NCBI GenBank assembly: GCA_023129325.1
Contig: JAGMCI010000011.1
Location: forward strand, 45,549 to 109,548
Source of the DNA: a candidate division WOR-3 bacterium
Lineage (GTDB): Bacteria; Hydrothermota; UBA3073; JACQXS01; JAGMCI01
DNA length: 64,000 nucleotides
Direction of reading: 5' to 3'
Below, piece by piece: positions 34,731 through 52,131 of this stretch; the first letter of the stretch is position 1; every line of letters starts with the position of its first letter. Below the pieces are notes generated by a model. The model was not told the DNA's origin and did no database searches. It was given only the letters and a program-made list of their open reading frames with translations. Position numbers and translations under genes: made by a program.

Positions 34731-34954
34731 TAGTTCTCATTGGGTGGTAAAGAACAAGTTCCAGTAGAGCAAGTGGGACAACTTGAGCTACCAGTAGATA
34801 AGCCCCCCATCCTGACTCCAAACGAAGACAAAAGACGCTCCAATTTTTGGCTACCACACTTTGGACATTTTAGCTCTTTGTTTCCTTTTCCCACACCAAT
34901 CAGAAGGTCAAACTCTTCATTGCACTCTTTGCATTTATAAGAATATACAGGCAT
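34730..34954 (-). CDS. FmdB-type zinc-ribbon protein
   Basis: MPVYSYKCKEC...CPKCGS; CxxCxxxxC tail. Confidence 0.85.
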   Translation of the reverse strand: MPVYSYKCKECNEEFDLLIGVGKGNKELKCPKCGSQKLERLLSSFGVRMGGLSTGSSSCPTCSTGTCSLPPNEN

Positions 34955-34968
34955 TGGTGCCTCCTTTA

Positions 34969-35178
34969 TTATTCTTCCAAAATTATTGCTTCACCAGGAC
35001 AACTCTCAACTGCTTCTTTAACACATTCTATATCATCTGGCTCAGGAGTCTTTACCTTGGCAATATCATCTTCCACTCCGTGGTGAAGGTCGTGGCGAAC
35101 CATCTCAAAAATATCAGGGCAGAGAGATTCACAAATCCCACAGCCTGTGCATTTTTCTTCATCTATTTTCACTTTCAT
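34969..35178 (-). CDS. Monocluster ferredoxin with 9-aa insert VRHDLHHGV
   Basis: CTGCGICESLCP...CP. Confidence 0.9.
   Translation of the reverse strand: MKVKIDEEKCTGCGICESLCPDIFEMVRHDLHHGVEDDIAKVKTPEPDDIECVKEAVESCPGEAIILEE
35073..35102 (-). mobile_element. TGG-flanked 24-nt element (family C), copy 1 of 6
   Basis: TGG-TTCGCCACGACCTTCACCACGGAG-TGG; other copies at 36184, 36767 (12-nt form), 43037, 43577, 52101. Confidence 0.85.
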
Positions 35179-35190
35179 TTCTGTCTCCTA

Positions 35191-35406
35191 TTACCTTGTC
35201 ATCTTGGCACCACATTTAGGGCAGGTCATGTTGTAACAAGGTTGTCCAAGTTTATGGGCGACCTTTGTTCCACATTTTGGGCAGATACAATAGCCGCCGG
35301 GTCCTAAAGCTTGCCCACCTCCAAGACCTCTTCCACCACCTTGCCCTAAACCTCTACCTGTTCCTGGACCCTCGCCTCGTGGTCCTGTTCCATCACCTCT
35401 TGGCAT
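35191..35406 (-). CDS. DUF5320-like small protein with Cys-rich tail
   Basis: MPRGDGTGP; CICPKCG...CPKCG. Confidence 0.8.
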   Translation of the reverse strand: MPRGDGTGPRGEGPGTGRGLGQGGGRGLGGGQALGPGGYCICPKCGTKVAHKLGQPCYNMTCPKCGAKMTR

Positions 35407-35493
35407 AATACCTCCTATGTTAAGTCATTGGGTTATTGAGTTATTAATATCTAATTACCCAATTACTCAATTACTTATTTTTACTGAGTGGTT

Positions 35494-35865
35494 TTATTTT
35501 TTCTGTTCTTGTTTCCTTAGCTCATCCATTCGTGTTTTAATTGCATCCATTTCAGACTTAAGAGCATCAGCTTGAGCTTTTAACATTTGAAGTTCATCTT
35601 GTGGCGCTGGCTGTGAATACCCGAAAGTTTGTGCATAAGGCTGTGAATAGTATGAAGGGCTATAAGTTGGGTAAGGAGTATATGGATATGCTTGACCTCT
35701 CCAAAACCGGCCACGACCTCTACCCAAACCGAGTCCATATCCAAAGTAGCCTCTTCCAGGAATTGGATTTGTAAATCCTGGCGCAGAATAGCCAGCGCAG
35801 TAACCTGCTGCTCTACCTGTCATAGGTCCCATACCGGCGGGACCAGTTCCATCACCTCTTGGCAT
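35494..35865 (-). CDS. DUF5320 family protein
   Basis: MPRGDGTGPAGMGPMTGRAAGYCAG; C-terminal coiled coil. Confidence 0.85.
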   Translation of the reverse strand: MPRGDGTGPAGMGPMTGRAAGYCAGYSAPGFTNPIPGRGYFGYGLGLGRGRGRFWRGQAYPYTPYPTYSPSYYSQPYAQTFGYSQPAPQDELQMLKAQADALKSEMDAIKTRMDELRKQEQKK

Positions 35866-35890
35866 AATACCTCCTATGTTAAGTCACTGA

Positions 35891-35952
35891 GTAGGGGCAG
35901 GGCTTGCCCCTGCCCTAAATCTCAGTGGGGCAACCGCAAGGGGTGCCCCTAC
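35891..35952. repeat. GTAG-type REP inverted doublet (REPIN-like)
   Basis: GTAGGGGCAGGGCTTGCCCCTGCCC-spacer-GGGCAACCGCAAGGGGTGCCCCTAC. Confidence 0.8.
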
Positions 35953-35954
35953 AA

Positions 35955-36590
35955 TTACTTATTTTTACTGAGTTCTTTTATCCTTTTATTAATTTCATCA
36001 ACTTGTTGTTTTAAAGAATCTGCCTGCTGCTTTAAAAGTGAAATTTCTTGTTCTTTTGTAGGTTGTTGCATTTGACCCATTCCCGGAGTCCCAAATCCCG
36101 TCCCAGGTGTTTGAGGCATTTGTTGGTATCCCATACCCATACCTCTTCCCATTCCACGTCCCATACCCATACCTCTTCCCATTCCACTCTGTGGTGAAGG
36201 TCGTGGTGAACCATAACCGTCCCCCATTCCTACTCCAAAGTGGGAAGGGACATTGGGTTGGACAGTGGGTTGGAGCTGACCTGTTTTATATTTCTGGATT
36301 GCATCCTGAACTGTTCCGGTAACTCCAACAATTACCTGAACTCCAGCTGCCTGAAGTGTCTGAAAAGCATTTGGGCCACAACTACCAGTCAGAAGAACCT
36401 GTGTTCCTTTGTTTGCAATAAGTTGTGCAGATTGAATACCTGCCCCACTCATAGCTTGGATATTAGGATTCTTTACTGCCTCAAACTTTAGAGTATCAGA
36501 GTCTACAAATATAAAGTAAGTACATCTTCCAAATCGTGGGTCAACTTGAGAGTTAAGGTCAGGTCCTGTAGTTGTAATTGCAATCTTCAT
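35955..36590 (-). CDS. NifB/NifX domain protein with GMGRG repeats and DUF5320-like coiled coil
   Basis: DPRFGRC, GAGIQSAQ, TGSCGPNAF. Confidence 0.85.
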   Translation of the reverse strand: MKIAITTTGPDLNSQVDPRFGRCTYFIFVDSDTLKFEAVKNPNIQAMSGAGIQSAQLIANKGTQVLLTGSCGPNAFQTLQAAGVQVIVGVTGTVQDAIQKYKTGQLQPTVQPNVPSHFGVGMGDGYGSPRPSPQSGMGRGMGMGRGMGRGMGMGYQQMPQTPGTGFGTPGMGQMQQPTKEQEISLLKQQADSLKQQVDEINKRIKELSKNK

Positions 36591-36964
36591 TTTTTCCCTC
36601 CTTCTAATTCTTTAATCCTTTGTCTTATGCCATCAAGTTCGTCCTCCAATATTTCAGCCTGTCCCTTTAACATATTCAATTCCTGTTCTGGCGCAATAGG
36701 TGCAGCTCCCCATGGGTCATAAGGAGTTGGAAAACCAGTCATCGGAAACCCCGAAGTTGGAGTATATGGTTCACCACGGAGTGGAATTTGACCTGCTTGC
36801 CAAGAATAATTCATCTGGGGCGTAGGCCAGGTTCCATACATCAAATATTGAGCCGCAGGACCAACTCCATACGGACTTCTACCTACCCATCCAGGTGAAT
36901 ATCCAAATCTCACCCAGCCAGGAAGGCCAGTTGCGTAGTACATATACCGATGTCTATTACCCAT
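36587..36964 (-). CDS. DUF5320-like Gly/Pro/Tyr-rich protein
   Basis: YYATGLPGWVRFG; coiled-coil tail; start moved to ATG 36964 after SD-like AAGGGGG. Confidence 0.75.
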   Translation of the reverse strand: MGNRHRYMYYATGLPGWVRFGYSPGWVGRSPYGVGPAAQYLMYGTWPTPQMNYSWQAGQIPLRGEPYTPTSGFPMTGFPTPYDPWGAAPIAPEQELNMLKGQAEILEDELDGIRQRIKELEGGKK

Positions 36965-37152
36965 AATAACACCCCCTTCTTCGTCTACTCTTGCCAATTT
37001 ATTGGCTTAGAGTGGCGTGAGTCCCGCACTTATCTTTTAAATTATCAGGGCTGAATATAAGTGCGGGATGGATATTGTTTGTTTTTTGGTGCTTGTGATT
37101 TGAAATTTCTTCATAATTTGTGCCTCATTTCTAAATACCCTTTTAATTATAT

Positions 37153-37168
37153 AGCAAAATCTGTGCCA
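37153..37168 (-). promoter_or_regulatory. Sigma-54 (-24/-12) promoter of the metallocofactor operon
   Basis: TGGCAC-AGATT-TTGCT; candidate activator sites TGTTTC...GCAACA/GAAACA at ~37245-37275; adjacent bEBP gene. Confidence 0.85.
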
Positions 37169-37307
37169 CAAGTTAGTATTTCAGGCTAATGCCAAGCGAC
37201 ACAAAGAATTAGACAAAAGAACCCTCTCATAGATTGTAATCTTTTGTTTCGCAATTGCAACAATGTTTGAAACATTAGTTCCAATGCTGCAACTTAATAA
37301 ACTATTT

Positions 37308-39044
37308 TTATATAAGCGATAAGTTTTTTGGATAAATCGTTATCTTATGTTTTTTTATTTTTCTCCAAAGAGTGGTGCGGGAGAATTTGAGGGCTTTGGC
37401 GGTTTTTAGTTTATTCCAATTATTTTTCTTTAATGCCTCAAGGATAAGCTTTTTTTCTAACTCATCCAAAGTTAGTTCTCCGGAAGGACGGGCAGGGACA
37501 AGCCCTGCCCCTACAAGTTCATCTGGTTTTATTTCATCTGGCAGGTGTTGAGTTTGGATTATCTTGCTGCGGCAATGGACAAAGGCGTGTTCAACTGCAT
37601 TTTCTAATTCTCTTACATTCCCGGGCCAGTTGTAGTCAATGAGTATATCCATTACCTGAGGTGATACATTTTCTATATTCTTACCTGTTTTTTTTCTGAA
37701 TTTCTGGATAAAATGTTTGACAAGAATAGGTATATCATCCCTTTTTTCTCTTAACGGGGGTAAGGAAATTGATACAACATTTAGTCTGTAATATAAGTCT
37801 TGCCTGAATTTTCTATCTTTTATTAGCTGTTTAAGGTCACGGTTAGTTGCGGCAATAATCCTGACATCTGCTTTTACAGTCTTTGTCCCTCCTATTCTTT
37901 CAAACTCTCCATCTTCTAGTACTCTAAGTAACTTAGCTTGCACATTACCTGGTATTTCTCCAATTTCATCTAAAAATATAGTACCTTCATTGGCAAGCTC
38001 AAATCTTCCAGGTTTATCTCTAATAGCTCCTGTAAAGGCTCCTTTTGTATGGCCGAAAAGTTCTGATTCTAAAAGATTTTCGGAAAGGTTGGCACAAAGT
38101 ACTTTTATGAAAGGTTTATCTTTCCTTGGTGAATTGTAGTGAATTGCTCTTGCTACTAATTCTTTGCCAGTGCCTGTTTCACCCAAAACAAGAACTGTAG
38201 CTGATGTTTCACTAACAATTCCTAAAAGGTCATATATTTCTTGCATCTTGGGATTTTTACCTACAATGTTGCTAAAGCTATATCTTTCGGCAAGCTCTTT
38301 GCTAAGATATTTTATTTTTGATAGGTCTCTAAAAGTTTCAACGCCTCCCATTATTTCACCCTCTTCATCAATAAGGAGAGCTGTTGACACAGCTACTGGT
38401 ATCTTTTTATGATTTTTAGTTAAGATTTCAATTTCGAAGTTAGATATTGGTTTACCTGTTTCCATAGTTTTACGAAGTGGGCAATTTTCTTTACAAACAT
38501 TACTTCTGAATATAAGGCGACATTCTTTACCTATTGCTGCTTCTCTTTTGAAGCCTGTTATTTTCTCAGCTGATTGATTAAAACTGGTTATTTTCCACTC
38601 AGCATTTACAGTGAATACTCCATCTGCAATACTCTCAACAATAGCATGAAGCCTATTTCTTTCATTTAGGAGTTCAGAGCTAATTGTTTGAAGTTCGGCA
38701 ATATTTCTAAATGCAAGTATGGCTCCAACTATCTTATGATTGACATTCTTTAAGGGAGTTGCGTTAATGGATATAGGGATTTTTATACCATTGGCAGTTT
38801 GTATGTTAACTATAATATTTGAAACTGCCTTTCCTGTTTTAATTACTTTTTGGACAGGACAATTTTTTTCGCAAAGTTCTGATTTAAAGATGTCTTTACA
38901 ATTTTTACCCAAAACTTTTCCTGCACTATGGTGAGTTATTCTTTCAGCACTCTCACTCCAACTAACAATATGCAAATCTTTATCAATAAATGCAACTCCA
39001 TCGCCAAGGGCTTCTAACATTTGTTCTGATAATTCTATTGGCAT
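37308..39044 (-). CDS. Sigma-54-dependent activator (2 PAS + AAA + Fis HTH)
   Basis: GETGTGKE, ESELFGHTKGAFTGA, FLDEIG, WPGNVREL, RTTLWRK; start uncertain (the ORF-track N-terminus comes from a palindrome). Confidence 0.9.
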   Translation of the reverse strand: MPIELSEQMLEALGDGVAFIDKDLHIVSWSESAERITHHSAGKVLGKNCKDIFKSELCEKNCPVQKVIKTGKAVSNIIVNIQTANGIKIPISINATPLKNVNHKIVGAILAFRNIAELQTISSELLNERNRLHAIVESIADGVFTVNAEWKITSFNQSAEKITGFKREAAIGKECRLIFRSNVCKENCPLRKTMETGKPISNFEIEILTKNHKKIPVAVSTALLIDEEGEIMGGVETFRDLSKIKYLSKELAERYSFSNIVGKNPKMQEIYDLLGIVSETSATVLVLGETGTGKELVARAIHYNSPRKDKPFIKVLCANLSENLLESELFGHTKGAFTGAIRDKPGRFELANEGTIFLDEIGEIPGNVQAKLLRVLEDGEFERIGGTKTVKADVRIIAATNRDLKQLIKDRKFRQDLYYRLNVVSISLPPLREKRDDIPILVKHFIQKFRKKTGKNIENVSPQVMDILIDYNWPGNVRELENAVEHAFVHCRSKIIQTQHLPDEIKPDELVGAGLVPARPSGELTLDELEKKLILEALKKNNWNKLKTAKALKFSRTTLWRKIKKHKITIYPKNLSLI

Positions 39045-39052
39045 TAGAAATG

Positions 39053-39096
39053 CAGATGTCATCCCGCACTTATGCATAAGTGCGGGATGACATCTG
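39053..39096. repeat. Perfect 44-bp palindrome
   Basis: CAGATGTCATCCCGCACTTATG|CATAAGTGCGGGATGACATCTG. Confidence 0.9.
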
Positions 39097-39107
39097 ACTT
39101 CTGTTTT

Positions 39108-42100
39108 TTATTTAATCCTGATTGCTTTCTTTATCTGTATGAAATTGCCAGCTTTCATACGATAAAAGTAAATTCCTGCTGGAACTCTTTTGCCTATCTC
39201 GTTATGACCATTCCAGATAACTTTATAGTAATTGGGTTTTTGTGATTCATTTACTAATGTGCGAATGAGAGTGCCGGTAATGTCATATATTTTGAGAGAG
39301 ACCGTGATATTCTTTTGTCTTAAGTCAGGAATCTGGTATCTAATTTCTGTGGTCTTAGTAAACGGATTAGGCACATTTTGATGGATAGCAAAAACTCTTG
39401 GCAATGAAGGGGGTTTTTCTTCTATTCCTGTTTCTACAATTATTATCCATTGAGTAGAATCATTGAGAATACCATCACTAACTATAACTTTAACTGTATC
39501 CACAGTCTTTTCATGGGACGAATACAAATAAGTTGAACCAGATGCTGTAGTGTCAATACTCCATTTATAAGTTAAAGAATCTTCAGGATTCGGGGCGTGA
39601 GCATATACTGTTAATAAAATAGAACTATCAATTTGAGTAGTACACGGGGATTGTGGGTTGATACTATCAATTACAGGTGTCTCTCCTTGGGAAGTTGTAG
39701 TTAAAGTCACTGGTACAGATACTATAGGCTCATCTGGGTCATTTGAATTTATCTTAAGCCAGGCATAGTAAGTAGAATCTAATGTAAGTCCTGACGCATC
39801 ATAAGAAATGAGTATATCAATACTATCTTCAGGCGGAATTGTGCCAGATATTGGGTCTTCAGAGAGCCATTTCATCTTATCTTTCGAAATCTTGATTACC
39901 AAATTATCGTGGACATAAGGGGTATTATAAGCAACTTGAAGTCCAATTGTTCCATCCTCATTTTGAATGCCAAGTGTAGCCTTATCAACCTGCTTTGCTG
40001 GCTCCGTCCCGCTTCGCTTGTCGGAGCGGGGCAGGCAGGTAAGTGTTCTCATCAACTGATATTGATAGGTTATCACACCATCAGCAGCCAAAATTATTTC
40101 AAAAGTATATGGTCCCTCTCCAGAAGCTTGTGATACATTATAGTATTCAACAATCAGCTTATCCTCATCAGAGTAATAATAAGCATTACCTCCGGCTGAA
40201 AAATCAAGGTCATCCCAAAAAGGTGCTAATAAATTAAAAGGTGCACTTGTATTAGGTAAAGTAGTATTATTAAAGTGAGCTGCTGTACTTGTGAAACTCA
40301 CCCATCCATTAGTACAAAACCTAAAAGATGTAAATTCATTTCCATAAAATGGGAAGGTAAAGCCAATAGGAAGAGGTCCAATATTTGAATCATCCCCAAG
40401 TCCTATTATTTCTGTTCCTGTTTTTGTAATATCAATCCAATCATAAGTGGGGCCACCAAGTTCATCAGAATCTATCCAACTGTAGCTGGCTGAATCTGGT
40501 CCCCCGGAACCATATTTATTGTCCCCAGTAGCAGGCAGGTTTGATTCAGTTATTCTAAATTCAAGTGTATCGTTGCCAAAATTGTTGATTATTATTATTT
40601 GAGATGTAGTATCATTTACTTTTAAAACTGCTTGAAGTGACTCAGGTAACACCTTTATATCAGGTGCTCTCAAGACAAAGTCTATTTCAGTATCTGGCGG
40701 CACGCTCGCATAAACTGGGTTAGAATTAAGAAATTCGGACGCTGATGCAATGAGAGTATAAGCTCCACCAGGCAAGTTGACAATTGTATAATAACCGCAG
40801 ACATCAGTTGTATCTATGCCAAAGCTTGGTCCGGTACAAATTACTATTGCATCTGGTATTCCAAGCCCTGTTGCGTCCGTAGCTCGTCCCGAAATTGTGC
40901 TGAAATGCCGTACTAAAATATTAAAATTAGATACCCAAATGGAACCAAGAATATCTTGGCAAGTCAAATTAAATGTCACTAAATGGCTATCTGGTGCGAC
41001 TGAATCTACTTCAAAAATATATGGAGGTGTTTTTAAAGAATCTCCTGGTTCAATAGTCCCAAATGTTTCTAAACTATCTATAACTGTGATAAAGGTATCA
41101 GTTGTTGAGATTTTACCTTCCACATTGTGAGCAGTATTAGTGCCGTAATTTTTTACCCACAGAGACATCTCAATTATCTCACCTTCATTTACAATTCCAT
41201 CTCCATTCCCACTTGATGCTCCAATTGAATCATCATCTATTAAAGGATTAAAACATGCAACATAGCAACCCTCAAGCACGGTTACTTTTACACTGTCTGA
41301 TTTAGATACATTAAGGTCACTTGCTTTTAAAGTATATGTTGTTGTTATAGGAGGAGATACTTTAGGATTTTTAATATTTGAATCAGGTAAGTCAAATTCA
41401 GAGGACCAAAGATATGTGTATCCTGGTGGAGATTCTGCATAATTTGGAGCACCATTCGTGACTGTTGGGTCCAGTGTTATAGTGTCACCATAATATATTG
41501 ATGTGTCATTTCCTGCATCTACAAAAAGGGGTGCATATTCTGCATTATAAGTATAGTAACCTAAATTACATTTCCCTTTTTCTATTCTCATATAACCGTT
41601 TTCTCCCCACCATTTACCCCAACTATTTTTAATTATCCAGTAAGTTGAATCATCATTCCAACCAACAAATACAATGGCATGGTTAAGTATTTCATCAGGT
41701 GATGGAGTATATGAATATATACCTCCGCTGTAGGACCACCATCCATTGTCAACCCATACGGTAGTGCTTAAAGGATGATTTATTAAAGCATTTTTAATGT
41801 CATTTTCATTATACCACCCGCCTGTTACTTGATTATATGATGTAATTTTTCTTGCCTGAGATTGCCAGTCTAAACATCTGTCACAAGGACCATTAGATGC
41901 TGTGTAAGGGTCACAGGATTCTAAAGGAATACCAGTATCTCTTGTGTAATGAAGCCCTGCATCATGCCAACCTCCATTACAACTTCCACACCAAGTGCAA
42001 CAATCTGTAACTAATGTTTGTTCAGCAAGGTCAAGGTCAATAGAGGTATCATTTTCTGCCACATTTATTAATGCTTCAATATGCCCAACAGCTGCAAATG

Positions 42101-42866: not shown

Positions 42867-42916
42867 AACTACCTCCTTTTATATAAATAAGGTATAATCT
42901 ATTACTTGTCAACTTT

Positions 42917-45073
42917 TTAATTTTGAATCCGGTTTAGATGAAAATCTATACCAATTATAACCTCAGAATCTTTCACTTCCACAAGAGTAGCATTGTCAGG
43001 AATCTTTACTAACCAAGGGGTAGTGTCTACACAATCTGGTTCACCACGACATTCACCACGGAGTGGCTCCGATAAATCTATGCCTTCATACCATTGTTCT
43101 ATGTAGCCATTAAATTTGCCAGTTCTCAGGAAATACTTGCCAGGAGTAAGTCCTTTAAGTTTATAACTTCCATCATTAGAGTCCGTAAATTGAGCCATAT
43201 GCCCTGTGGAATCATAAGCAATAATAGTTCCTGATGTTGAGACTTTACCTGAAATTAAGGAAGTATCATAAATAGTGCCACAAATCTGACATTCCCCAGG
43301 TGTGACATTAAAAGCAACCTCGGTCGTCTTCCCTTTTTCTATTTTGATAATCTTATTTCTTAAATCATTAAATTTTCTCCCTCCCCCAAACCATATAGCC
43401 GCAAAGTCAGAGTTAGGTGAGAAGGCACAGAGTTTGTATTCACCAGGGGAAAGCCCTGTAATCCTGTAACCACCACTAAATGTATTTTCACCTAATTTTA
43501 TGACCTGATTCTCATTCGTGAAATCTGGACAAACAGAATAGGCAATGATTTTAAATTTAATAGAGTCGCTTGATAATGGTTCACCACGACCTTCACCACG
43601 GAGTGGAAAGTTATTCCTGGCGTCTCCGTTAGCTAACGGACGACGAATAAATCCTCTAACCCATCCTCCAATAGATAATTTAAAATCAATATTAGTTGTG
43701 TTATATCCTTCTTTTATCTCAATCAGAGTGGAATTCTTGAAGCGAGTTGAGTTTTTGTAGTATTTATCAATATGAGTTATATGAGTGCGTGAATCAAAGG
43801 AATTTATCTTCAGTCTATATTTACCAGGTGGAATTTGTTTGAGTTCATATTTGCCTGTCGGTGAATGAAATGCCCACCTTTCTGGGAGTTTTTCTCCTTC
43901 TGGTGTATAAAGAGTTAAGTTAAATTCTTTTATAGGTTCTTCATTCTCATCTTTGACTATCCCTGAAATCATTCCTCCACTCTTAAGTTGAAAATCAATT
44001 CCAGTTATAGTATCTCTTGGAGTTACTGATAGCAGTGTCCCATAGGAAGGACTAATAGCATCCCTGTAATATTGCCAACAGTATGGACTTTCACGAGATG
44101 GAGAGAGTTTTATCCTATATCTACCCTCTGGCAAGCCTGAAATTATATAGTGTCCTGTGGAGTCCACTTCTTTTTCAAGTCCTCCTTCTTTACTTATTAC
44201 TTGGATTGAGACCTGTCCAATTTGTAGGGGCAATTCCCTGCGGTTGCCCACTCGAGGTGTAACTTTTCCTGAGATTGTGGCTCCTGGACTTACTTCAAAG
44301 TTGATTTCAGAAACAGTGTCAAGAATACTTTCTACCACTTGGGCACTATCCCAGCTTTGTAGGGGCAAGCCCTTGCGATTGCCCACTCTTTGTAGGGGCG
44401 AACCCGTGTGTTCGCCCCGTTTCCGTGCGGAACGGGGTTCGCCCACATAAAAGCTACCAATCCAGCCATCGGGTTCAATATAAATTTTATATGCACCAGG
44501 TTCTATGCCTGTTATTAAATATTTGCCAAGCGAATCTGTCAGGGAAAGATAAGTTGTGTATGAATTTTTTGATTTGTAAGCTTTTAGGAAAAAAGGGATT
44601 TTAATGACCGGTTTTTCAGTTCTTGCATCTATAATTTTACCTCGTATTACCCCTCCAGATTCAAGCAAAAAGTTTATCCCGGTTACAACCTTTCCTTTTT
44701 GTACACTAATTAGATTTGCATCTTCCCACCAATAAGTATTTTTATAATATTCCCCAGCATATCTACCTCCTGTGCCATAATATTCACCAGAATTGATTTT
44801 TAGAATATAATCTCCAGGGAGCAAATCACGAATTATATATCTACCATGAATATCTGTAGAAGCACAGCTTGTTATATATCCGTATTTGTTGTATGCCCAG
44901 ACCATAACTCCTGATATTGGGGTTTTCCCAGCACTCTCATAAGCCAATCCCTGGATTCCTCCTGTTTCCTTTACTTTGATTGGGATAAATTCTATTTTCT
45001 GTTGCCTAACGGATACACACCCAGAAATAAGCAAGAAGTAGGAAGTAAGAAGTAATAGGTTTCGAGGTTTCAA
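42917..45073 (-). CDS. Lipoprotein with repeated carboxypeptidase-regulatory-like (transthyretin-fold) domains
   Basis: Lipobox ISGC; repeated G.I.G...TD..G.Y.I.GL.PG.Y units; several in-frame repeat inserts. Confidence 0.8.
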   Translation of the reverse strand: MKPRNLLLLTSYFLLISGCVSVRQQKIEFIPIKVKETGGIQGLAYESAGKTPISGVMVWAYNKYGYITSCASTDIHGRYIIRDLLPGDYILKINSGEYYGTGGRYAGEYYKNTYWWEDANLISVQKGKVVTGINFLLESGGVIRGKIIDARTEKPVIKIPFFLKAYKSKNSYTTYLSLTDSLGKYLITGIEPGAYKIYIEPDGWIGSFYVGEPRSARKRGEHTGSPLQRVGNRKGLPLQSWDSAQVVESILDTVSEINFEVSPGATISGKVTPRVGNRRELPLQIGQVSIQVISKEGGLEKEVDSTGHYIISGLPEGRYRIKLSPSRESPYCWQYYRDAISPSYGTLLSVTPRDTITGIDFQLKSGGMISGIVKDENEEPIKEFNLTLYTPEGEKLPERWAFHSPTGKYELKQIPPGKYRLKINSFDSRTHITHIDKYYKNSTRFKNSTLIEIKEGYNTTNIDFKLSIGGWVRGFIRRPLANGDARNNFPLRGEGRGEPLSSDSIKFKIIAYSVCPDFTNENQVIKLGENTFSGGYRITGLSPGEYKLCAFSPNSDFAAIWFGGGRKFNDLRNKIIKIEKGKTTEVAFNVTPGECQICGTIYDTSLISGKVSTSGTIIAYDSTGHMAQFTDSNDGSYKLKGLTPGKYFLRTGKFNGYIEQWYEGIDLSEPLRGECRGEPDCVDTTPWLVKIPDNATLVEVKDSEVIIGIDFHLNRIQN
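44359..44446 (+). repeat. Tandem GTAG-type REPs, the second interrupted by a TTCG-flanked CCCCG element; in frame
   Basis: GTAGGGGCAAGCCCTTGCGATTGCCC; GTAGGGGCGAACCCGTGTG-TTCG-[CCCCGTTTCCGTGCGGAACGGGG]-TTCG-CCC; a third REP at 44224-44249. Confidence 0.85.
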
Positions 45074-45133
45074 GGTTTCGAGGTTTCGTGGTTTCAGTTT
45101 TTCCTTGACCCCTTGACCCCTTGACCCCTCTTT

Positions 45134-45823
45134 TCATTTTATTTTCTTTACTCTTTCTATATCCTCGTTTTGCCCAAGAAGCACAAGCCTATCTCCTTTA
45201 ATCAACCCATCATCAGGCATCGGGGCTATTAGTATGTTTTCGCCAATTCCAGCCTTTCCATTTTTATCAACTTTGGTAACTTTACGCTTTATTGCCACGA
45301 CCTGAACCCTATATTTTGAACGAATTGCCAATTCTCCAATAGTCTTTTCTTCAAAATTTTTAGGGACATCAACTTCCACAAGAGTATGAGTTGGAGAGAG
45401 TTTAATATGCTCAAAAATGCCTGGTTTTATAAGAGATTCAGTTACTTTGGCACCCATTTCTCTCTCTGGATAAATAACCCTGCTGGCTCCAAGTTTTGTT
45501 AATACCTTTCCCTGGAGTGAAGTAAAAGCTTTGGCAATAATTGTTTTAATTTCAAATTCCTTTAAAATAAGAGTTATAAGAATGCTTGAAGCAATATTCC
45601 GTCCTATTCCGACTACAGCAACATCTACATCTGGGACACCTGCGTCCCTGAGAGCCGTTTCATCAGTTGCATCAAGCTCAATCGCCCGTGCAGCAAATTC
45701 TGATGCTATTTTTACTTTTTTCTCATCCATATCTATGGCAAGAACTTGAACACCCTTTTTACTTAGTGTCTGAGCCACAGACATTCCAAAACGCCCGAGC
45801 CCTATTACTGCGAATTGTTTCAT
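45134..45823 (-). CDS. trkA: Trk/Ktr potassium uptake NAD-binding (RCK) subunit
   Basis: VIGLGRFG; PEREMG; TrkA-C domain. Confidence 0.85.
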   Translation of the reverse strand: MKQFAVIGLGRFGMSVAQTLSKKGVQVLAIDMDEKKVKIASEFAARAIELDATDETALRDAGVPDVDVAVVGIGRNIASSILITLILKEFEIKTIIAKAFTSLQGKVLTKLGASRVIYPEREMGAKVTESLIKPGIFEHIKLSPTHTLVEVDVPKNFEEKTIGELAIRSKYRVQVVAIKRKVTKVDKNGKAGIGENILIAPMPDDGLIKGDRLVLLGQNEDIERVKKIK

Positions 45824-45925
45824 CTCTCCCCCTTACATCAAATACCTAAATACCTAAACACCTAAAATCCTAAATCCTTTTTTTAGACATTTAGGCATTT
45901 TGGACTTTTAGGCATTTGTTTCTTC

Positions 45926-47299: not shown

Positions 47300-47495
47300 T
47301 CTTTATATAAAGTAACATAAAATCTTTAAAAGTCAAGAAAATCTTTCTGATGACCTCAATTTTATTGAGGTCTAATGATTAGATTTTCTGACCCCGCACA
47401 AATGTGTTTTGTGCTGTGGTCAAGAAAAAACTGCAACTATGAGATAAGGTGGTTATCTCCTTGTGAAATTACAGTTCGTTAGTTAGAGATTTTAG

Positions 47496-47852
47496 TTACT
47501 TTTCAGTTGACTTTGGGGGAGGTGATGTTTTGGGTGTTTCTTTTTTTGTGTTTTTAATTACTTTTTTCTCTTTCTTTTCAACAACTTTCTCTTTCTCAGA
47601 TGGCTTTGTGGCTATTTTCTTTGATAGGAGTTTGGCAAGTCTTGATTTTTTGCGAGCCGCAGTGTTGGGGTGTAGAACTCCCTTTTTTACAGCTCTATCA
47701 AGAACAGAGTAAATCTCTTTTAAAGATTTGGGAGATTTAGATGCTTTTGATTTCTTCACAACAGAGCGTATTTCAGATTTTGCTTTTCTGTTTCTTAATC
47801 TCCTCTTCTTATTTTGGCGGGCACGTTTAATTGTTGAGCGATGACGAAGCAT
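47496..47852 (-). CDS. rpsT: 30S ribosomal protein S20 with Lys-rich C-terminal extension
   Basis: STIKRARQNKKRRLRN; LDRAVKKGVLHPNTAARKKSRL; SD GGAGG before ATG 47852. Confidence 0.9.
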   Translation of the reverse strand: MLRHRSTIKRARQNKKRRLRNRKAKSEIRSVVKKSKASKSPKSLKEIYSVLDRAVKKGVLHPNTAARKKSRLAKLLSKKIATKPSEKEKVVEKKEKKVIKNTKKETPKTSPPPKSTEK

Positions 47853-47945
47853 TTTTCCCTCCTCCAAAGGATTATAATCTTTACTTCACTACTTGTCAAG
47901 TTTTTTCTTGACACAAAGTTTAAATAATGTATACTTTTACACCTA

Positions 47946-48467
47946 ATGTCTGATATAAAGTCTGTTCATATAAAAGAACGTGCTTTTCTTGCAATGATAC
48001 TTTCATCTGTTGAAGTTTATAGATATGAGACGCTCGGAATTTTACTTGGTTATAAGGGCGAAGATTCATTTGTTGTTGAATATGCTATTCCTTATCAAAC
48101 TGCCGTTAAGGGTTATTCTTGGGTAGCCCCGAAGTCAAGAGCATCTGAAAGGATGGTCAAAATTCTTGAGCGTATGTCAATTAATGTTATAGGAGATTTC
48201 CATTCTCATACTCAGTGGGGTGACTTTAAAGGTAAACCCGTCCCTTCAGGGGAGGATATTGCTGATATGGAACTTAATAAAATTTATGCCATCGTTGCCG
48301 TTAATGATAAACAAAAGAAGGAATCGTGGCATCGTACAGAAGCAGGCACTATTGTTGGGACTTTGAGTGATTATAGTCTGGAGATTGGAGCCCATATTCT
48401 TGTCAGTAATTACAAATCAAAGTCTGTAAAAATAATATGCCCAAGCGCCACGGGGCTATCATATTAA
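47946..48467 (+). CDS. JAB/MPN (JAMM) metalloprotease-domain protein
   Basis: ETLGILLG...GDFHSHT...PSGEDI (E-HxH-S-D); promoter TTGACA-N16-TATACT at 47908-47935. Confidence 0.8.
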   Translation: MSDIKSVHIKERAFLAMILSSVEVYRYETLGILLGYKGEDSFVVEYAIPYQTAVKGYSWVAPKSRASERMVKILERMSINVIGDFHSHTQWGDFKGKPVPSGEDIADMELNKIYAIVAVNDKQKKESWHRTEAGTIVGTLSDYSLEIGAHILVSNYKSKSVKIICPSATGLSY

Positions 48468-48468
48468 A

Positions 48469-49488
48469 GTGATGAAATATAAAGAGGCTGGTGTTGATAT
48501 AGAAAAGGGCGACACCTTTAAAAAATATATTAAAAAGCTAAGTAATGTTATTGGAGGCTTTGGGGGGACTTTTGAGATTCCAAAAGGCTACAAACATCCT
48601 CTCCTTGTTTCCTCAGTGGATAGTGTGGGCACAAAGCTTAAAATTGCAATGCAACTCGGAATCCATAATACAGTTGGTAAAGATATAGTCAATCATTGCG
48701 TAAATGATATTTTAACCCTTGGCGCCAAGCCTTTATATTTTATGGATTATATAGGAACTGGAAAGTTAAATTTAGAACAGCAAAAAGAAGTAATAAATGG
48801 AATTGTAGATGCTTGCAAAGAAAACGATATTTTGCTGCTTGGTGGCGAGACAGCTGAATTACCAGGACTTTACAATCTTGAAGAATACGATTTAGTTGGC
48901 TTTATTACTGGAATAGTAGAAAAAAATAATTTAATAGATGGAAGTAAGATAATGCCAGGCGATAAACTCATCGGCCTTCCTTCAAACGGACTTCATACTA
49001 ATGGGTATTCACTTGTCCGAAAGATTATAAAGGATAAAGGTCTATCACTTAATCTTAAAATTCCAGAACTTGGTTCTGGACTTGGCGAAGAGCTTTTGAA
49101 AATCCACAGGTCTTATAAGGACTTGCTCACTCCCTTCCTTGACAAAGTAAAAGGACTTATTCACATAACAGGTGGTGGATTTTATGGAAATGTGCCAAGA
49201 ATTTTGCCAAAAGGGTTGGGAGCTAAAATTTATAAAGACTCATGGGACATCCCACCTATATTTAAATTTATTCAGCATGAAGGAGAAGTTGAAGAAAGAG
49301 AAATGTTTGAAGTTTTTAATATGGGAATAGGAATGATTGTGATTGTGGATGACTTTGAAGTACTCTCTGGGATTTGTGCCATAAGCACATCCCTGCCCGA
49401 TGGACGGCAGGCGGGCACCTTTGGTGGAAAGGAAAAAATATCATTTATAGGAGAAATTAAGAGGGGAGAAAGAGTAGAAATTATTTGA
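48469..49488 (+). CDS. purM: Phosphoribosylformylglycinamidine cyclo-ligase
   Basis: YKEAGVDI, GGETAELPG, SNGLHTNGYSL, HITGGG, FNMGIG. Confidence 0.95.
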   Translation: MMKYKEAGVDIEKGDTFKKYIKKLSNVIGGFGGTFEIPKGYKHPLLVSSVDSVGTKLKIAMQLGIHNTVGKDIVNHCVNDILTLGAKPLYFMDYIGTGKLNLEQQKEVINGIVDACKENDILLLGGETAELPGLYNLEEYDLVGFITGIVEKNNLIDGSKIMPGDKLIGLPSNGLHTNGYSLVRKIIKDKGLSLNLKIPELGSGLGEELLKIHRSYKDLLTPFLDKVKGLIHITGGGFYGNVPRILPKGLGAKIYKDSWDIPPIFKFIQHEGEVEEREMFEVFNMGIGMIVIVDDFEVLSGICAISTSLPDGRQAGTFGGKEKISFIGEIKRGERVEII

Positions 49489-49557
49489 TGACAAATTAAA
49501 AATCAAAATGCAAAAATCAAAAATAATAATATTTAATACTTTATGAGAATATCTGCG

Positions 49558-49633
49558 TTCACCCCGTTAGATGACTTTTCGTATCTAACGGGGTTCATTT
49601 GCGTCTAATCCCGCACATAAGTCATGTGCGGGA
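49558..49633. mobile_element. TTCA-flanked CCCCGTTAGA...TCTAACGGGG element followed by a TCCCGCAC...GTGCGGGA palindrome
   Basis: TTCA-CCCCGTTAGATGACTTTTCGTATCTAACGGGG-TTCA (49562-49593); TCCCGCACATAAGTCATGTGCGGGA. Confidence 0.8.
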
Positions 49634-49645
49634 CAATTTTAAATT

Positions 49646-50563
49646 TTGAATTTTCTTGATTATATATTCCTGTTGCGTCCAACCCTTTTTGTTCCAGTAT
49701 GGACTTTCTTCTTGCTTGGATTTTATAAAGGGAACTTATTGCAAGAAGGTTATTCAAATTATCAAATAACAAAACCGTTTGTTCTTGCCTTTATCTTGTA
49801 TACTCTTCTCATGGGTGGTGTTTATATATTAAATCAAATCACAGACATAAAATCAGATAAAATAAACAAAAAACTCTACCTCTTACCCGGAGGTTATATA
49901 TCAGTTAAATATGCTTACCTTGAGATGATAATTCTTTTTGTCATCGCTTTTGTTCTTGCCATTCCTTTTTCCAGACAATTTAAAATTATACTTCTCGCCT
50001 CGTTAGCTTTAGGAATCTTATATTCCAGCCAGCCATTCAAATTTAAAGCCAGACCTTTTATTGATTTGTTATCAAACTCATTTGGTTATGGAATACTTGC
50101 CTTTTCTCTTGGTTGGGTTACCGGAAATCCGTTATCCAAAAAGACATTTCTTTTTGCCTTACCCTACTTCTTTGCTGTGGGAGCTGTTTTTATAAATACA
50201 ACTATCCCTGATATTGAAGGAGATAGGAAGGCAAATCAGGTAACAACCAGCATATTTATAGGAGAAAAGAAAGCCTATTTGTTAAGCACAAGTCTACTTT
50301 TTATATCACTTGGGTTTTCAATTTACCTAAAAGATTGGCTCTGTGGAATTGCATGCTTAGGTGCTATGCCATTCTTTATATTGGCACTCCTAAAAAATGA
50401 TTTGAAAAATTGCTTTTTGTCAATAAGGATAGGAGCTCCAATTCTTGTAATACTTGTTGGTATTAAATTTCTCTGGTTTATTCCACTCCTTGTTGTTCTT
50501 TTCTTTGGTTTAAAAGCTTATTATAAAAAACGCTTTAACATAATGTATCCTAAAATAATATAA
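49646..50563 (+). CDS. UbiA family prenyltransferase
   Basis: NQITDIKSDKINK; YS..PFKFK; PDIEGDRK; multi-TM. Confidence 0.85.
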   Translation: MNFLDYIFLLRPTLFVPVWTFFLLGFYKGNLLQEGYSNYQITKPFVLAFILYTLLMGGVYILNQITDIKSDKINKKLYLLPGGYISVKYAYLEMIILFVIAFVLAIPFSRQFKIILLASLALGILYSSQPFKFKARPFIDLLSNSFGYGILAFSLGWVTGNPLSKKTFLFALPYFFAVGAVFINTTIPDIEGDRKANQVTTSIFIGEKKAYLLSTSLLFISLGFSIYLKDWLCGIACLGAMPFFILALLKNDLKNCFLSIRIGAPILVILVGIKFLWFIPLLVVLFFGLKAYYKKRFNIMYPKII

Positions 50564-50627
50564 GAAATAATAAAAAAAACTTGACAAATTTAAAAAGTAT
50601 AGTATAGATTAAGAAAGGAGGTATTTT

Positions 50628-50819
50628 ATGCGTTGGCCTATAGTAATTACTATTGTAGCAGCAGTATCTTTCATTTTTGGAATAATAAGTAGATTAATGT
50701 ATCCAGCAGGAGCTGGAGCTCTGTTCAGGATAAAGCCTCTTTCCTATATATCTGTTGCTGAGATGCTTCTCTTATTTGCTATCTCAATTGCTTGCATCAT
50801 AAAATTCAAGAAAGACTGA
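50628..50819 (+). CDS. Small two-TM membrane protein
   Basis: Strong SD AGGAGG, TTGACA at 50581, two hydrophobic helices. Confidence 0.65.
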   Translation: MRWPIVITIVAAVSFIFGIISRLMYPAGAGALFRIKPLSYISVAEMLLLFAISIACIIKFKKD

Positions 50820-50823
50820 AAGC

Positions 50824-52131
50824 TCATAGAGCTAAGAGTTCGCCGATAAGATATAAGGAACCTGTAGCTAAAATTAAATCATCGGGTTGAGCGCGCTGGC
50901 GTGCAAGGTGAAAAGCACTTTCTGTATTTTGTGTAATTTGGACTTGCACCTTTTTTTGTTTAAAAAGTTGAAAAATATCTTCTGGATTTGCTGAGCGTTC
51001 TGATTTAAGAGATGTTACATAAGTATAGTCAGTAATTGGTGATAATACTTGAATTATTCCTTCTTTATCTTTATCCTTCAAAACTCCAAAAATAAGTATT
51101 AAGTGCCTGAAATTAAATAATTCAATAATAGCCCTTCGCAATACCCATGCAGAAGCAACATTATGTGCTCCGTCAAATACAATCCACGGGTTTTTGTTAA
51201 TAATTTCTAATCTACCCGATGATTTAACTTCACGAAGCCCCTCTTTTATAAGAGTATCTGGAATATTGCAAACCCGAGCTGTGCAAATTGAAGTGAGTGC
51301 ATTTATTATTTGATGTCTGCCTAAAAGGGGAAGCTCGTATCTCTTCACACTTCCTACTTCCCACTTCCTACTTCTCGGTGAAGCAGGTGATATTTTGAAT
51401 CTTGAACCCGTTAGGTCACACTCTATATCTTCACAAAAAAGGTCTTCTCCAATAACTTGAAGAGTTGTCTTTTTATCTTGGCAAGCTTTTTTAATTACTT
51501 CTAAAACTTCTGGAGCCTGGGGACTTGATATAACCTGCCCACCTTCTTTTATTATGCCACACTTTTCATTAGCTATTGAGGTTAAAGTATGACCAAGAAT
51601 TTTTGTATGGTCAAAACTTATTGGAGTTAGAATTGAGACCTCTGGGGTCAAAACATTTGTAGCATCAAGTCTCCCTCCAAGTCCAACTTCAAAGATAGAA
51701 AAATCTGTCTTTTCTCTTGCAAAATAAGTAAAAGCAAGGGAAGTAAGAATCTCGTATGTTGAACATTCACTGGTGAGGTACGGTTTCATTTTTTCAAGAA
51801 GCTGAACAAAATCAGATTCAGGGATAGGCTGGTCATTTATTTTTATTCTCTCACGGATATTTACAAGATGTGGCGAAGTGAAAGTCCCTGTTTTCCCAAC
51901 TTTCTTAAATATTGAAGACAAAATATGTGCCGTAGAACCTTTGCCTTTGGTGCCTGCTATTAAGATAGGTCTCTTAAGTTGAGAATGAGGATAGTCAATT
52001 TTTTTGAGAAATTTATGGAATGAAGAAAGATTAAATTCATAGCGTCTTCCCCTTTCCCAATCTTTAAAACTGTATATAAATTCTAAAGCCTTTTTAAAAT
52101 CCACTCCGTGGTGAAGGTCGTGGTGAACCAT
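50824..52131 (-). CDS. folC: Folylpolyglutamate synthase / dihydrofolate synthase
   Basis: AGTKGKGST, TSPHL, EVGLGGRLDATN, DGAHN, TGSLYL; N-terminal insert VHHDLHHGV. Confidence 0.95.
   Translation of the reverse strand: MVHHDLHHGVDFKKALEFIYSFKDWERGRRYEFNLSSFHKFLKKIDYPHSQLKRPILIAGTKGKGSTAHILSSIFKKVGKTGTFTSPHLVNIRERIKINDQPIPESDFVQLLEKMKPYLTSECSTYEILTSLAFTYFAREKTDFSIFEVGLGGRLDATNVLTPEVSILTPISFDHTKILGHTLTSIANEKCGIIKEGGQVISSPQAPEVLEVIKKACQDKKTTLQVIGEDLFCEDIECDLTGSRFKISPASPRSRKWEVGSVKRYELPLLGRHQIINALTSICTARVCNIPDTLIKEGLREVKSSGRLEIINKNPWIVFDGAHNVASAWVLRRAIIELFNFRHLILIFGVLKDKDKEGIIQVLSPITDYTYVTSLKSERSANPEDIFQLFKQKKVQVQITQNTESAFHLARQRAQPDDLILATGSLYLIGELLAL

What the first reader, a model, noticed from the sequence alone, without database searches (positions are those of the whole stretch)
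35073..52130. A 27-nt non-palindromic insertion unit with TGG duplication, found only inside genes, in both orientations and three frames
TGG-TTCACCACGACC-TTCACCACGGAG-TGG occurs at 35073, 36184, 43037, 43577 and 52101 (at most one mismatch each), and a 12-nt half form at 36767. Net additions are 27 or 15 nt. Removal restores natural sequence (ferredoxin FEM|EDDIAKV, FolC M|DFKKALEF, NifX GDGYG|MGRG). It reads VHHDLHHGV, SPRPSPQSG or PLRGEGRGE, and five of six frames are stop-free. The right end plus target forms a CCAC-GGA-GTGG GNA-triloop mini-hairpin. There are no terminal inverted repeats, so the mechanism is unclear (template-directed addition or ssDNA hairpin recognition). The His-rich reading lands in a ferredoxin within a metal-handling operon.
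Basis: partly seen in the sequence, partly recalled or inferred. Interest (0 to 1): 0.85.

Follow-up and report, generated by a model that had tools for sequence, protein, structure and literature searches.

The report
Tiny in-frame mobile DNA repeat
A 27-base repeat has copied itself into dozens of places in this uncultured seep bacterium, often inside essential genes where it simply adds nine harmless amino acids, which puts it among the smallest mobile DNA elements seen so far.

Summary
The window has five full copies and one half copy of TGG-TTCACCACGACC-TTCACCACGGAG-TGG, against 0 expected by chance. The 2.0-Mb genome, a WOR-3/"Stahlbacteria"-related MAG, has 34 copies with at most 2 mismatches.

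Orthologues in related genomes lack the unit at all six window sites and at two further sites checked. Where the closest orthologue aligns cleanly, it carries a single TGG.

Exact copies sit at other loci in three related genomes and seven metagenome contigs whose flanks are only about 64-86% identical. An independent study's assembly bridges one copy. Another shows the half form at the FolC site. It is therefore real and mobile.

Longer relatives of 51 and 75 nt keep the same ends and carry nested 24-nt modules. The ends therefore define the unit.

"Only in genes" is wrong genome-wide: 22 copies are genic and 12 are intergenic or unsure. Genic survivors avoid the stop frame and two hydrophobic frames.

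The mechanism is unproven. My best guess is trans-mobilisation at TGG by a single-strand (HUH-type) enzyme. The closest described things are the cyanobacterial "small dispersed repeats" and the in-frame Rickettsia palindromic elements.

The parts
35073..35102 (-). Full 27-nt unit (TGG + 24-nt core + TGG; TTCGCC variant) inside the 69-aa ferredoxin gene, read as VRHDLHHGV
   Evidence: Absent from 11 of 11 homologues. The G004 empty site is GAG ATG|GAA.
36184..36213 (-). Full unit (CCACAGAG variant) in the Gly/Met-rich linker of a NifX-like (Nitro_FeMo-Co) + DUF5320 protein, read as GSPRPSPQS
   Evidence: Absent from 3 of 3 full-length orthologues. The alignment lies in low-complexity sequence.
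36767..36784 (+). Half form (TGG + 12 nt + TGG, net 15 nt) in a DUF5320 protein gene, read on the gene strand as PLRGE
   Evidence: G001 lacks exactly these 15 nt and keeps a single CCA.
43037..43066 (+). Full unit (one mismatch, GACA) antisense in the 718-aa CarboxypepD_reg-repeat surface protein gene, read as PLRGECRGE
   Evidence: Absent from 6 of 6 orthologues. G002 has a single CCA at the site.
43577..43606 (+). Full consensus unit antisense in the same 718-aa gene, read as PLRGEGRGE
   Evidence: Absent from 6 of 6 orthologues. Bridged by a 611-nt contig of run X3 from another study with 0 gaps.
52101..52130 (-). Full consensus unit directly after the start codon of folC, read as M-VHHDLHHGV-DFKK
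   Evidence: Absent from 9 of 9 orthologues, 7 of which have ATGGA at the site. Run X2 carries the 15-nt half form here (12 nt left out at 52107).
34969..35178 (-). Host gene: small ferredoxin (69 aa)
35955..36590 (-). Host gene: NifX-like Nitro_FeMo-Co + DUF5320 protein (211 aa)
36587..36997 (-). Host gene: DUF5320 protein (136 aa ORF)
42917..45073 (-). Host gene: 718-aa surface protein with two copies
50824..52131 (-). Host gene: FolC-type Mur-ligase-family protein (435 aa)

Best explanation
The unit is a very small, non-autonomous mobile DNA element. It has a 24-nt core made of two diverged 12-nt direct repeats (TTCACCACG-ACC / TTCACCACG-GAG). It is always found next to TGG, so a filled site reads TGG-core-TGG and an empty site reads TGG.

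Shown here:
- It is inserted relative to orthologues.
- The target is TGG and nothing more.
- Copies exist at different loci in several related lineages.
- Subfamilies with shared diagnostic changes exist.
- Composite 51- and 75-nt versions with the same ends and nested 24-nt cargo have themselves spread. About 14-17 nt at the left end and about 7-10 nt at the right end therefore suffice in cis.
- 15-, 27- and 39-nt forms interconvert by gain or loss of a 12-nt repeat.

Inferred:
- The element is moved in trans by a sequence-specific enzyme that recognises these asymmetric ends. It is pasted next to TGG and can be removed precisely.
- I think a single-strand HUH/Y1-type reaction is the most likely chemistry, as in IS200/IS605 elements and REP-associated transposases. 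Those insert 3' of a short target, leave no true duplication, have no terminal inverted repeats and excise seamlessly.

Because every family member adds a multiple of 3 (3 + 12n) and five frames lack stops, insertions in genes are often tolerated. Selection then removes copies in the stop frame and the two hydrophobic frames. What remains are nine-residue Gly/Pro/charged or His-rich inserts, several of them at a gene's start or between Pfam domains.
For: Insertion and empty sites. All compared orthologues are empty at these sites:

| Site | Orthologues lacking it | TGG at the empty site |
|---|---|---|
| FolC | 9 of 9 | 7 of 9 |
| Ferredoxin | 11 of 11 homologues | yes in G004 |
| Homoserine dehydrogenase | 5 of 5 | 2 of 5 |
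| 718-aa protein, two copies | 6 of 6 each | one site has CCA in G002 |
| Half form | G001 lacks exactly 15 nt | single CCA |
| MurG ~85-aa nested array | 5 of 5 | not assessed |

Target. The flank logo of 42 copies shows only TGG on each side.

Spread:
- The genome has 34 copies with at most 2 mismatches.
- In the same order, 3 of 9 other genomes hold 1-2 copies at other loci. None of 31 genomes from the rest of the class and phylum does.
- Seven metagenome contigs carry the exact 30-mer with flanks only about 64-86% identical to G000.
- The G005 orthologue of the 718-aa gene has its own copy at a third site.

Ends define the unit. Net lengths are 27 (32 copies), 39 (1), 51 (6) and 75 (3), with 15-nt half forms seen separately. 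All equal 3 + 12n. The 51-nt composite carrying the TTCACTCTGACGAATCGGAACGAG module occurs 7 times at different TGG-flanked loci.

Subfamilies. Recurrent changes sit at positions 7, 19 and 24.

Not an artefact, and polymorphic. An X3 contig bridges copy 43577-43606. X2 has the half form at the FolC site.

Precise loss or re-use of a site. At the same PheT codon, G000 has the full unit, G007 a half form with one change, and G002 a decayed half form. G001, G003 and G005 are empty.

Selection on frames. None of 22 genic copies lies in the stop frame (P = 0.018). One of 22 lies in the three disfavoured frames (P = 5e-6, but that grouping was made post hoc).

Candidate enzymes. There are four Y1_Tnp (PF01797) genes in G000. 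No RVT_1, no TnpB-type domain, and only one large serine recombinase were found.
Against: - No Y1 gene is flanked by this unit. Each is flanked by its own REP-type hairpins.
- Y1 genes occur in 9 of 10 genomes of the order whether or not the unit is present. This gives no support either way.
- The unit is too short to hold the two subterminal hairpins of IS200/IS605 ends. Its only stem (CCAC-GGA-GTGG) is no better than shuffles.
- There is no orientation bias against GC skew (P = 0.30). Lagging-strand-targeting elements often show one.
- Reconstructed target sites are less structured than random TGG sites.
- Sequence alone cannot tell a 3-bp target duplication from a TGG carried at one end of the element.
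- The MAG is 89% complete, so a partner gene could be unassembled.
Confidence: 0.55

Rival explanations
1. RNA-mediated spread. The unit is transcribed, often as part of host mRNAs, and a short RNA or cDNA copy is written back into the genome at TGG. This is what was proposed for cyanobacterial small dispersed repeats (recalled from Elhai et al. 2008; that paper could not be opened here).
For: The size class, the nesting and the association with heptamer tandem repeats resemble what I recall of those repeats. Two copies sit in GGGAAGT arrays, and nested 24-nt modules exist. Most copies lie in transcribed genes.
Against: No RVT_1 reverse transcriptase was found in the 89%-complete genome. No Rfam family matches in the window apart from one tRNA. 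There is no significant fold. No RNA run holds the locus, so this could not be tested.
Confidence: 0.15
2. No dedicated enzyme. Copies arise by templated repair or template switching. A broken or stalled 3' end finishing in TGG pairs with the TGG beside an existing copy, copies the unit up to the next TGG, and returns.
For: TGG on both sides is exactly what 3-nt microhomology at both switches would leave. Tandem runs share single TGGs (C9 141820-141900). 12-nt slippage products are seen as the 15- and 39-nt forms and the X2 half form.
Against: Three bases of homology occur at an estimated tens of thousands of sites (my estimate from base composition, not a call). Yet only families with these particular ends spread, including composites with unrelated cargo. 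The exact sequence is shared across lineages whose genes differ by 14-36%, which argues for sequence-specific recognition.
Confidence: 0.15
3. A selected functional motif rather than a selfish insertion. Examples would be a protein-binding site (two direct 9-mers 12 nt apart), an uptake signal or a chromosome-organising signal that the host benefits from.
For: The sequence is conserved far better than its host genes. The direct-repeat architecture is typical of sites bound by protein dimers or tandem domains.
Against: Such motifs normally arise by point mutation in place, not as clean 27-nt additions to orthologous genes. Copy number is 34 in one genome and 0-2 in its relatives. There is no positional or strand pattern.
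Confidence: 0.07
4. Technical artefact: adapter or primer carry-over, or assembler-made chimeras at a repeat.
For: Logan unitigs of the likely source run X1 break at the copies, as at any repeat.
Against: A contig from another study bridges a copy without gaps, and another shows a variant at the FolC site. Copies occur in MAGs and metagenome contigs from other projects. Every genic copy checked keeps its host ORF open, and 19 of 20 host ORFs outside the window have Pfam domains.
Confidence: 0.01

Closest known systems
Small dispersed repeats (SDR1-8) of Nostocaceae. Elhai et al. 2008, Genome Res 18:1484. The paper is not held here. I saw only citing passages; other details are recalled.
   Same: - Very small size (21-27 nt there; 24+3 nt here).
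- Dispersed at tens of copies.
- Found as insertions in otherwise conserved sequence.
- Nested insertions.
- Some copies embedded in heptamer tandem repeats.
- No encoded enzyme and an unknown mechanism.
   Different: - A different phylum (WOR-3/Stahlbacteria-related, from the titles). SDRs were reported only in Nostocaceae (passage).
- The sequence was not found in any cyanobacterial genome in the scan of 185,579 species.
- Here there is a defined TGG at both junctions, a strict 3+12n length rule, and frequent in-frame residence in housekeeping genes.
- No conserved hairpin.
Rickettsia palindromic elements (RPEs). Passages of the MITE review PMC10969869 were read.
   Same: Selfish repeats that sit in frame inside unrelated metabolic genes and add a peptide without destroying the protein.
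   Different: RPEs are about 150 bp and palindromic, and each family encodes one conserved peptide. This unit is 27 nt, is not palindromic, and is used in four different reading frames and both orientations.
REP/REPIN sequences with RAYT (Y1 HUH) transposases, and IS200/IS605-derived miniature elements
   Same: No terminal inverted repeats, no classical duplication, short target, asymmetric ends, seamless loss. The genome encodes four Y1_Tnp homologues and many REP-like hairpins.
   Different: Those elements are hairpins and are mostly extragenic. Their RAYT genes are flanked by the cognate REPs. This unit has no significant hairpin, is often intragenic, and flanks no Y1 gene.
Classical MITEs
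   Same: Non-autonomous, short, multi-copy, and a constant short repeat at both junctions.
   Different: MITEs have terminal inverted repeats and are usually over 50-100 bp. This unit has direct, not inverted, internal repeats.
GC clusters and 'byp' elements of yeast mitochondria (recalled, not checked here)
   Same: Short GC-rich mobile inserts in an AT-rich genome that land inside coding sequence. Here the unit is about 60% G+C in a 36% G+C genome.
   Different: Byps are skipped by the ribosome. Here the lengths are multiples of three and the stop frame is avoided, so the inserts are most likely translated.

Membership tests
Small dispersed repeats (SDR) of Nostocaceae | Length about 21-27 nt, dispersed, many copies | tested here: met
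   24-nt core plus TGG. There are 34 copies with at most 2 mismatches in 2.0 Mb.
Small dispersed repeats (SDR) of Nostocaceae | Seen as insertions in otherwise conserved sequence, with nested insertions (recalled feature) | tested here: met
   Empty sites in orthologues. Nested 24-nt modules inside the unit and inside each other.
Small dispersed repeats (SDR) of Nostocaceae | Sequence identity to one of SDR1-8, or occurrence in Nostocaceae | tested here: not met
   The scan of one genome per 185,579 species found the unit only in two WOR-3-related MAGs, plus three chance hits in high-GC genomes. The SDR sequences themselves could not be read because the paper is not held.
Small dispersed repeats (SDR) of Nostocaceae | Conserved predicted hairpin supported by compensatory changes (recalled for SDR4-6) | tested here: not met
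   MFE -2.7 kcal/mol, z = 0.39. The variable positions 7, 19 and 24 are single-sided.
MITE | Terminal inverted repeats | tested here: not met
   The ends are TTCACCACG... and ...CCACGGAG, which are direct, not inverted. No arm pairing appears in the fold.
MITE | Target-site duplication of fixed length | tested here: inconclusive
   TGG is on both sides in 40-42 of 42 copies, and empty sites have one TGG. This cannot be told apart from an element that carries TGG at one end.
REP/REPIN-RAYT | Imperfect palindrome (hairpin) with a conserved GTAG-type head, mostly extragenic | tested here: not met
   No significant hairpin. 22 of 34 copies are genic. The genome's true REP-like families (CTACAA heads) are different sequences.
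REP/REPIN-RAYT | Cognate Y1 transposase gene flanked by the repeat | tested here: not met
   The four Y1_Tnp genes are flanked by other repeats.
IS200/IS605-type single-strand transposition (mechanism, not membership) | Insertion 3' of a short fixed target, no inverted repeats, seamless excision | tested here: inconclusive
   The TGG target and lack of inverted repeats are met. Seamless loss is suggested only by the PheT site pattern. Subterminal hairpins are absent. Catalysis is not testable here.
Rickettsia palindromic elements | About 100-150-bp palindromic element encoding one conserved in-frame peptide | tested here: not met
   27 nt, non-palindromic, four frames in use.

The most novel reading that the evidence does not exclude
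A previously undescribed class of 'codon-neutral micro-transposons'. These would be modular 12/24-nt units with sequence-specific asymmetric ends that paste next to TGG and excise precisely. They would have been shaped so that every family member adds 3+12n bases with almost no stop codons, letting them colonise the coding sequence of a 90%-coding genome, essential genes included. They would be moved by an enzyme not yet linked to such tiny substrates, perhaps one of the RAYT-like HUH proteins. If so, they are an unrecognised source of peptide insertions in bacterial proteins and a minimal model for how very short DNA can be mobile.
Probability: 0.3. Interest if true: 0.85.

Novelty: new variant of a known kind. 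Interest (0 to 1): 0.66.

Why it matters
Mobile elements below about 50 nt are barely documented. The one described set that I know of, the cyanobacterial SDRs, still has no mechanism.

This family gives unusually clean handles on the question:
- a fixed three-base target;
- defined minimal ends, mapped by natural cargo-carrying composites;
- a strict length rule;
- natural full, half and empty alleles.

It also shows that essential enzymes (PheT, MurG, FolC, homoserine dehydrogenase) tolerate, and keep, repeat-derived peptides. That matters for annotation, for alignment-based phylogenomics of uncultured lineages, and for thinking about how loops and linkers in proteins arise.

Tried and rejected
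Literature
- The key SDR paper could not be opened by DOI or PMC id. Its repeat sequences therefore could not be compared directly.
- A search for the 12-mers in papers gave only unrelated primer hits.
- 'SDR4/5/6' gave only unrelated uses of the abbreviation.
- No paper combined WOR-3/Stahlbacteria with repeat terms.
- I know of no published description of this unit, but that rests only on searches. Supplements were not consulted (closed).

Master copy and partner enzyme
- No longer element with the same two ends was found in G000. The three unpaired left-end matches with 2 mismatches look like chance.
- Y1 genes do not correlate with the unit.
- A large serine recombinase is the only Resolvase-domain protein, and it is not IS607-like in size.
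- No TnpB-type domain and no reverse transcriptase were found.

Structure and target
- No significant fold of the 30-mer or of a 78-nt composite on either strand.
- Target sites are not hairpin-prone.
- No target consensus beyond TGG.
- No strand bias against GC skew.

Other negatives
- Viral contigs: 0 matches.
- No RNA holder was listed among the sequencing runs, so expression could not be examined.
- Only Logan contigs, not raw reads, were available, so within-sample polymorphism could not be measured.

Apparent variants in the laid contigs that I do not use
- A 24-nt deletion at window 45057 in run X2 is copy-number change of an 8-nt tandem repeat, not this family.
- A 33-nt 'insert' at window 40019 in X1/X3 contigs matches a paralogous composite repeat elsewhere in the genome (C10 ~32243). 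I do not count it as a polymorphism.

Chance hits
- The three genome-contig hits in Mailhella, Nocardioides and an actinomycete MAG are chance or conserved-gene matches in 62-72% G+C DNA without the left TGG.

Tools not used: structure prediction, complex prediction, protein atlas, and the large protein searches. No open question here depended on them.

Full report
**1. The observation**

The 24-nt core TTCACCACGACCTTCACCACGGAG occurs five times in the window with at most one mismatch. The copies are at 35076(-), 36187(-), 43040(+), 43580(+) and 52104(-). None of 100 dinucleotide-preserving shuffles gave a single match. Reading the sequence shows TGG on both sides of each copy.

The right half plus TGG occurs a sixth time at 36770(+). 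There it forms a half-size version, TGG-TTCACCACGGAG-TGG. On the reverse strand one frame has TGA stops, and the other five frames are open.

**2. Where the window comes from, and how common the unit is**

- The window is part of a 2.02-Mb, 57-contig genome with 36% G+C that is 89% complete.
- Record titles of the related genomes that share the unit name one "Candidatus Stahlbacteria" groundwater MAG and one unclassified MAG.
- Runs that hold the window are cold-seep metagenomes.
- The genome has 34 copies with at most 2 mismatches, nearly all with TGG on both sides.
- By 12-mer architecture there are 31 two-unit copies, one three-unit copy (39 nt) and half forms.

**3. It is an insertion, and the empty site is a single TGG**

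I compared every window copy, and several others, with orthologues from the nine other genomes of the same order.

- **FolC.** All 9 orthologues start M-D/N/E-F. They lack the nine residues that follow the start codon in G000. The closest one reads ATGGATTTTAAAAAT where G000 reads ATGG[27 nt]ATTTTAAAAAG. Seven of 9 have TGG at the site.
- **Ferredoxin.** All 11 homologues lack the insert. The 80%-identical G004 protein reads FEM|EDDIAKV, with GAG ATG GAA in the DNA.
- **NifX-like/DUF5320 protein.** All 3 full-length orthologues lack it, though the region is low-complexity.
- **The 718-aa surface protein.** Both copies are absent from 6 of 6 orthologues.
- **Half form.** The same-family genome G001 lacks exactly 15 nt and has one CCA.
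- **Outside the window.** Homoserine dehydrogenase orthologues lack it in 5 of 5 cases. PheT orthologues lack it in 3 of 5. MurG orthologues (5 of 5) lack an in-frame array of about 85 residues made of these units.

Nineteen of 20 host ORFs outside the window have Pfam domains, so these are real genes.

**4. It is not an artefact, and it varies between populations**

- A 611-nt contig from another study (run X3) crosses copy 43577-43606 with no gap.
- A 293-nt contig from run X2 crosses the FolC site with 12 nt left out, which is the half form.
- Exact 30-mers, TGG to TGG, occur on seven metagenome contigs at loci different from those in G000. The flanking DNA of those contigs is only about 64-86% identical to G000.
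- Three of the nine other genomes of the order hold one or two copies at yet other loci. None of 31 genomes from the rest of the class and phylum does.
- The G005 orthologue of the 718-aa gene carries its own copy at a third position.

The unit is thus much better conserved than the genes it sits in, and it has entered different sites in different lineages.

**5.

The same left end (TGG|TTCACCACGACC) and right end (CCACGGAG|TGG) also bound elements of 51 and 75 nt. These are the 27-nt unit carrying 24-nt modules nested inside it. In the 75-nt forms, a further 24-nt module is nested inside the first.

The modules also occur on their own. They are often found in the loops of the genome's REP-like hairpins.

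One 51-nt composite is found seven times at different TGG-flanked loci. The composite itself has therefore spread. It follows that the short ends, not the interior, are what is recognised.

Every paired family member adds 27, 39, 51 or 75 nt, and the half forms add 15. All are 3 + 12n.

Recurrent changes at positions 7, 19 and 24 define subfamilies. All copies in the related genomes belong to the position-24 subfamily.

**6. What selection does to it**

A crude ORF cover of the genome is 90%. Of the 34 copies, I count 22 as clearly genic and 12 as intergenic or uncertain. The unit is therefore not confined to genes. If anything it is depleted there.

The 22 genic copies use the frames as follows:

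| Reading | Copies |
|---|---|
| PLRGEGRGE | 9 |
| VHHDLHHGV | 6 |
| GSPRPSPRS | 6 |
| WFTTTFTTEW | 1 |
| HSVVKVVVN | 0 |
| Stop-containing frame | 0 |

The absence from the stop frame has P = 0.018. Grouping the stop frame with the two hydrophobic frames gives 1 of 22, but that grouping was made after seeing the data.

Several inserts lie at the start of a gene or between Pfam domains: GT4 at residue 178, the ABC transporter at residue 349, and the MurG linker.

The His-rich reading in the ferredoxin is one of six such cases in unrelated proteins. I see no reason to connect it with metal handling.

**7. Mechanism**

Shown:
- The target is TGG only. The logo of 42 copies shows nothing else.
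- The ends suffice in cis.
- The 12-nt repeats slip, giving the 15-, 27- and 39-nt forms and the X2 allele.
- There are no inverted ends.

Suggestive: at one PheT codon G000 has the full unit, G007 a half form with one change and G002 a decayed one, while G001, G003 and G005 are empty. With only TGG as target, two independent hits on the same TGG are unlikely by my rough estimate. Precise loss in some lineages, or an unseen site preference, is therefore needed.

I favour trans-mobilisation by a single-strand HUH/Y1-type enzyme for these reasons:
- That chemistry gives insertion beside a short fixed target.
- It involves no inverted repeats, and it excises seamlessly.
- The genome has four Y1_Tnp genes.
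- The genome has no detectable reverse transcriptase, no TnpB-type domain and no IS607-like serine transposase.

Against this model:
- Each Y1 gene is flanked by its own REP-type hairpins rather than by this unit.
- Y1 genes are present in 9 of 10 genomes of the order regardless of the unit.
- The unit has no significant hairpin.
- Copies show no bias against GC skew.
- Target sites are, if anything, less structured than random TGG sites.

The rivals are an RNA-mediated route and enzyme-free templated copying by TGG microhomology. Neither is excluded.

**8. Comparison with what is known**

The nearest described phenomenon is the small dispersed repeats of Nostocaceae. I could read only citing passages, and the rest is recalled. 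The two share size, nesting, association with heptamer repeats and lack of a known mechanism.

This unit is not one of them as far as I could test. The sequence is not found in cyanobacterial genomes, and there is no conserved hairpin. It also lies in a different phylum.

Rickettsia palindromic elements share the in-frame residence in metabolic genes. They are about five times longer and palindromic. MITE and REP/REPIN membership fail on their defining features: inverted ends, hairpin, and a cognate flanked transposase.

**9. Verdict**

This is a real and well-supported tiny mobile element family. It is a new variant of a rarely described kind. Its target, ends and length rule are clearly defined, but its mechanism is unresolved.

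Noticed in passing
G000 genome-wide (e.g. C36:22900-23600, C56:33480-34020, C22:8370-9050, C18:6450-7010): The genome is crowded with other short repeat families. These include REP-like hairpins with CTACAA heads, a 60-nt hairpin repeat, GC-rich units of 24-45 nt, and heptamer tandem repeats. Four RAYT-like Y1 transposase genes are each flanked by their own hairpin repeats.
   Followed up: partly
G000:C9:140989-142290 (MurG; locus L034): MurG carries an in-frame insertion of about 85 residues at its interdomain linker. It is built from the 27/39/75-nt units plus other small repeats. The G005 MurG has a different repeat-derived insertion at the same place.
   Followed up: partly
window 45040-45130: An 8-nt tandem repeat (GGTTTCGA/GGTTTCAA) and an adjacent CCTTGACC repeat lie at the 5' end of the 718-aa gene. 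Run X2 has 24 nt fewer there, and one X1 contig has 8 nt more.
   Followed up: partly
window 40019/40020 (inside the 1156-aa papain-family protease gene): Contigs of X1 and X3 show 33 extra letters in the loop of a GC-rich hairpin repeat. An identical composite exists at G000:C10 ~32243, so these may be mis-laid paralogous copies rather than a polymorphism.
   Followed up: partly
window 42917-45073 (718-aa protein): Besides the two 27-nt units, the G000 protein has further short insertions relative to 6 orthologues (e.g. ...GNRKGLPLQ... and ...GNRRELPLQ...). These look like another small repeat family. The G005 orthologue has an EDRGQ-type tandem insertion.
   Followed up: no
G000:C14:62183-62206: One copy of the 27-nt unit sits in the loop of a REP-like hairpin (GGGGCGTA...CAATACGCCCC), upstream of a DUF2851 gene. 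This shows that the small repeat families insert into one another.
   Followed up: partly
window 34482-36997: A cluster of small genes lies here: two FmdB-type zinc-ribbon proteins, the ferredoxin, several Gly-rich DUF5320 proteins and a NifX-like protein. It is followed by a sigma-54 activator with PAS domains. It is not a nitrogenase operon.
   Followed up: no
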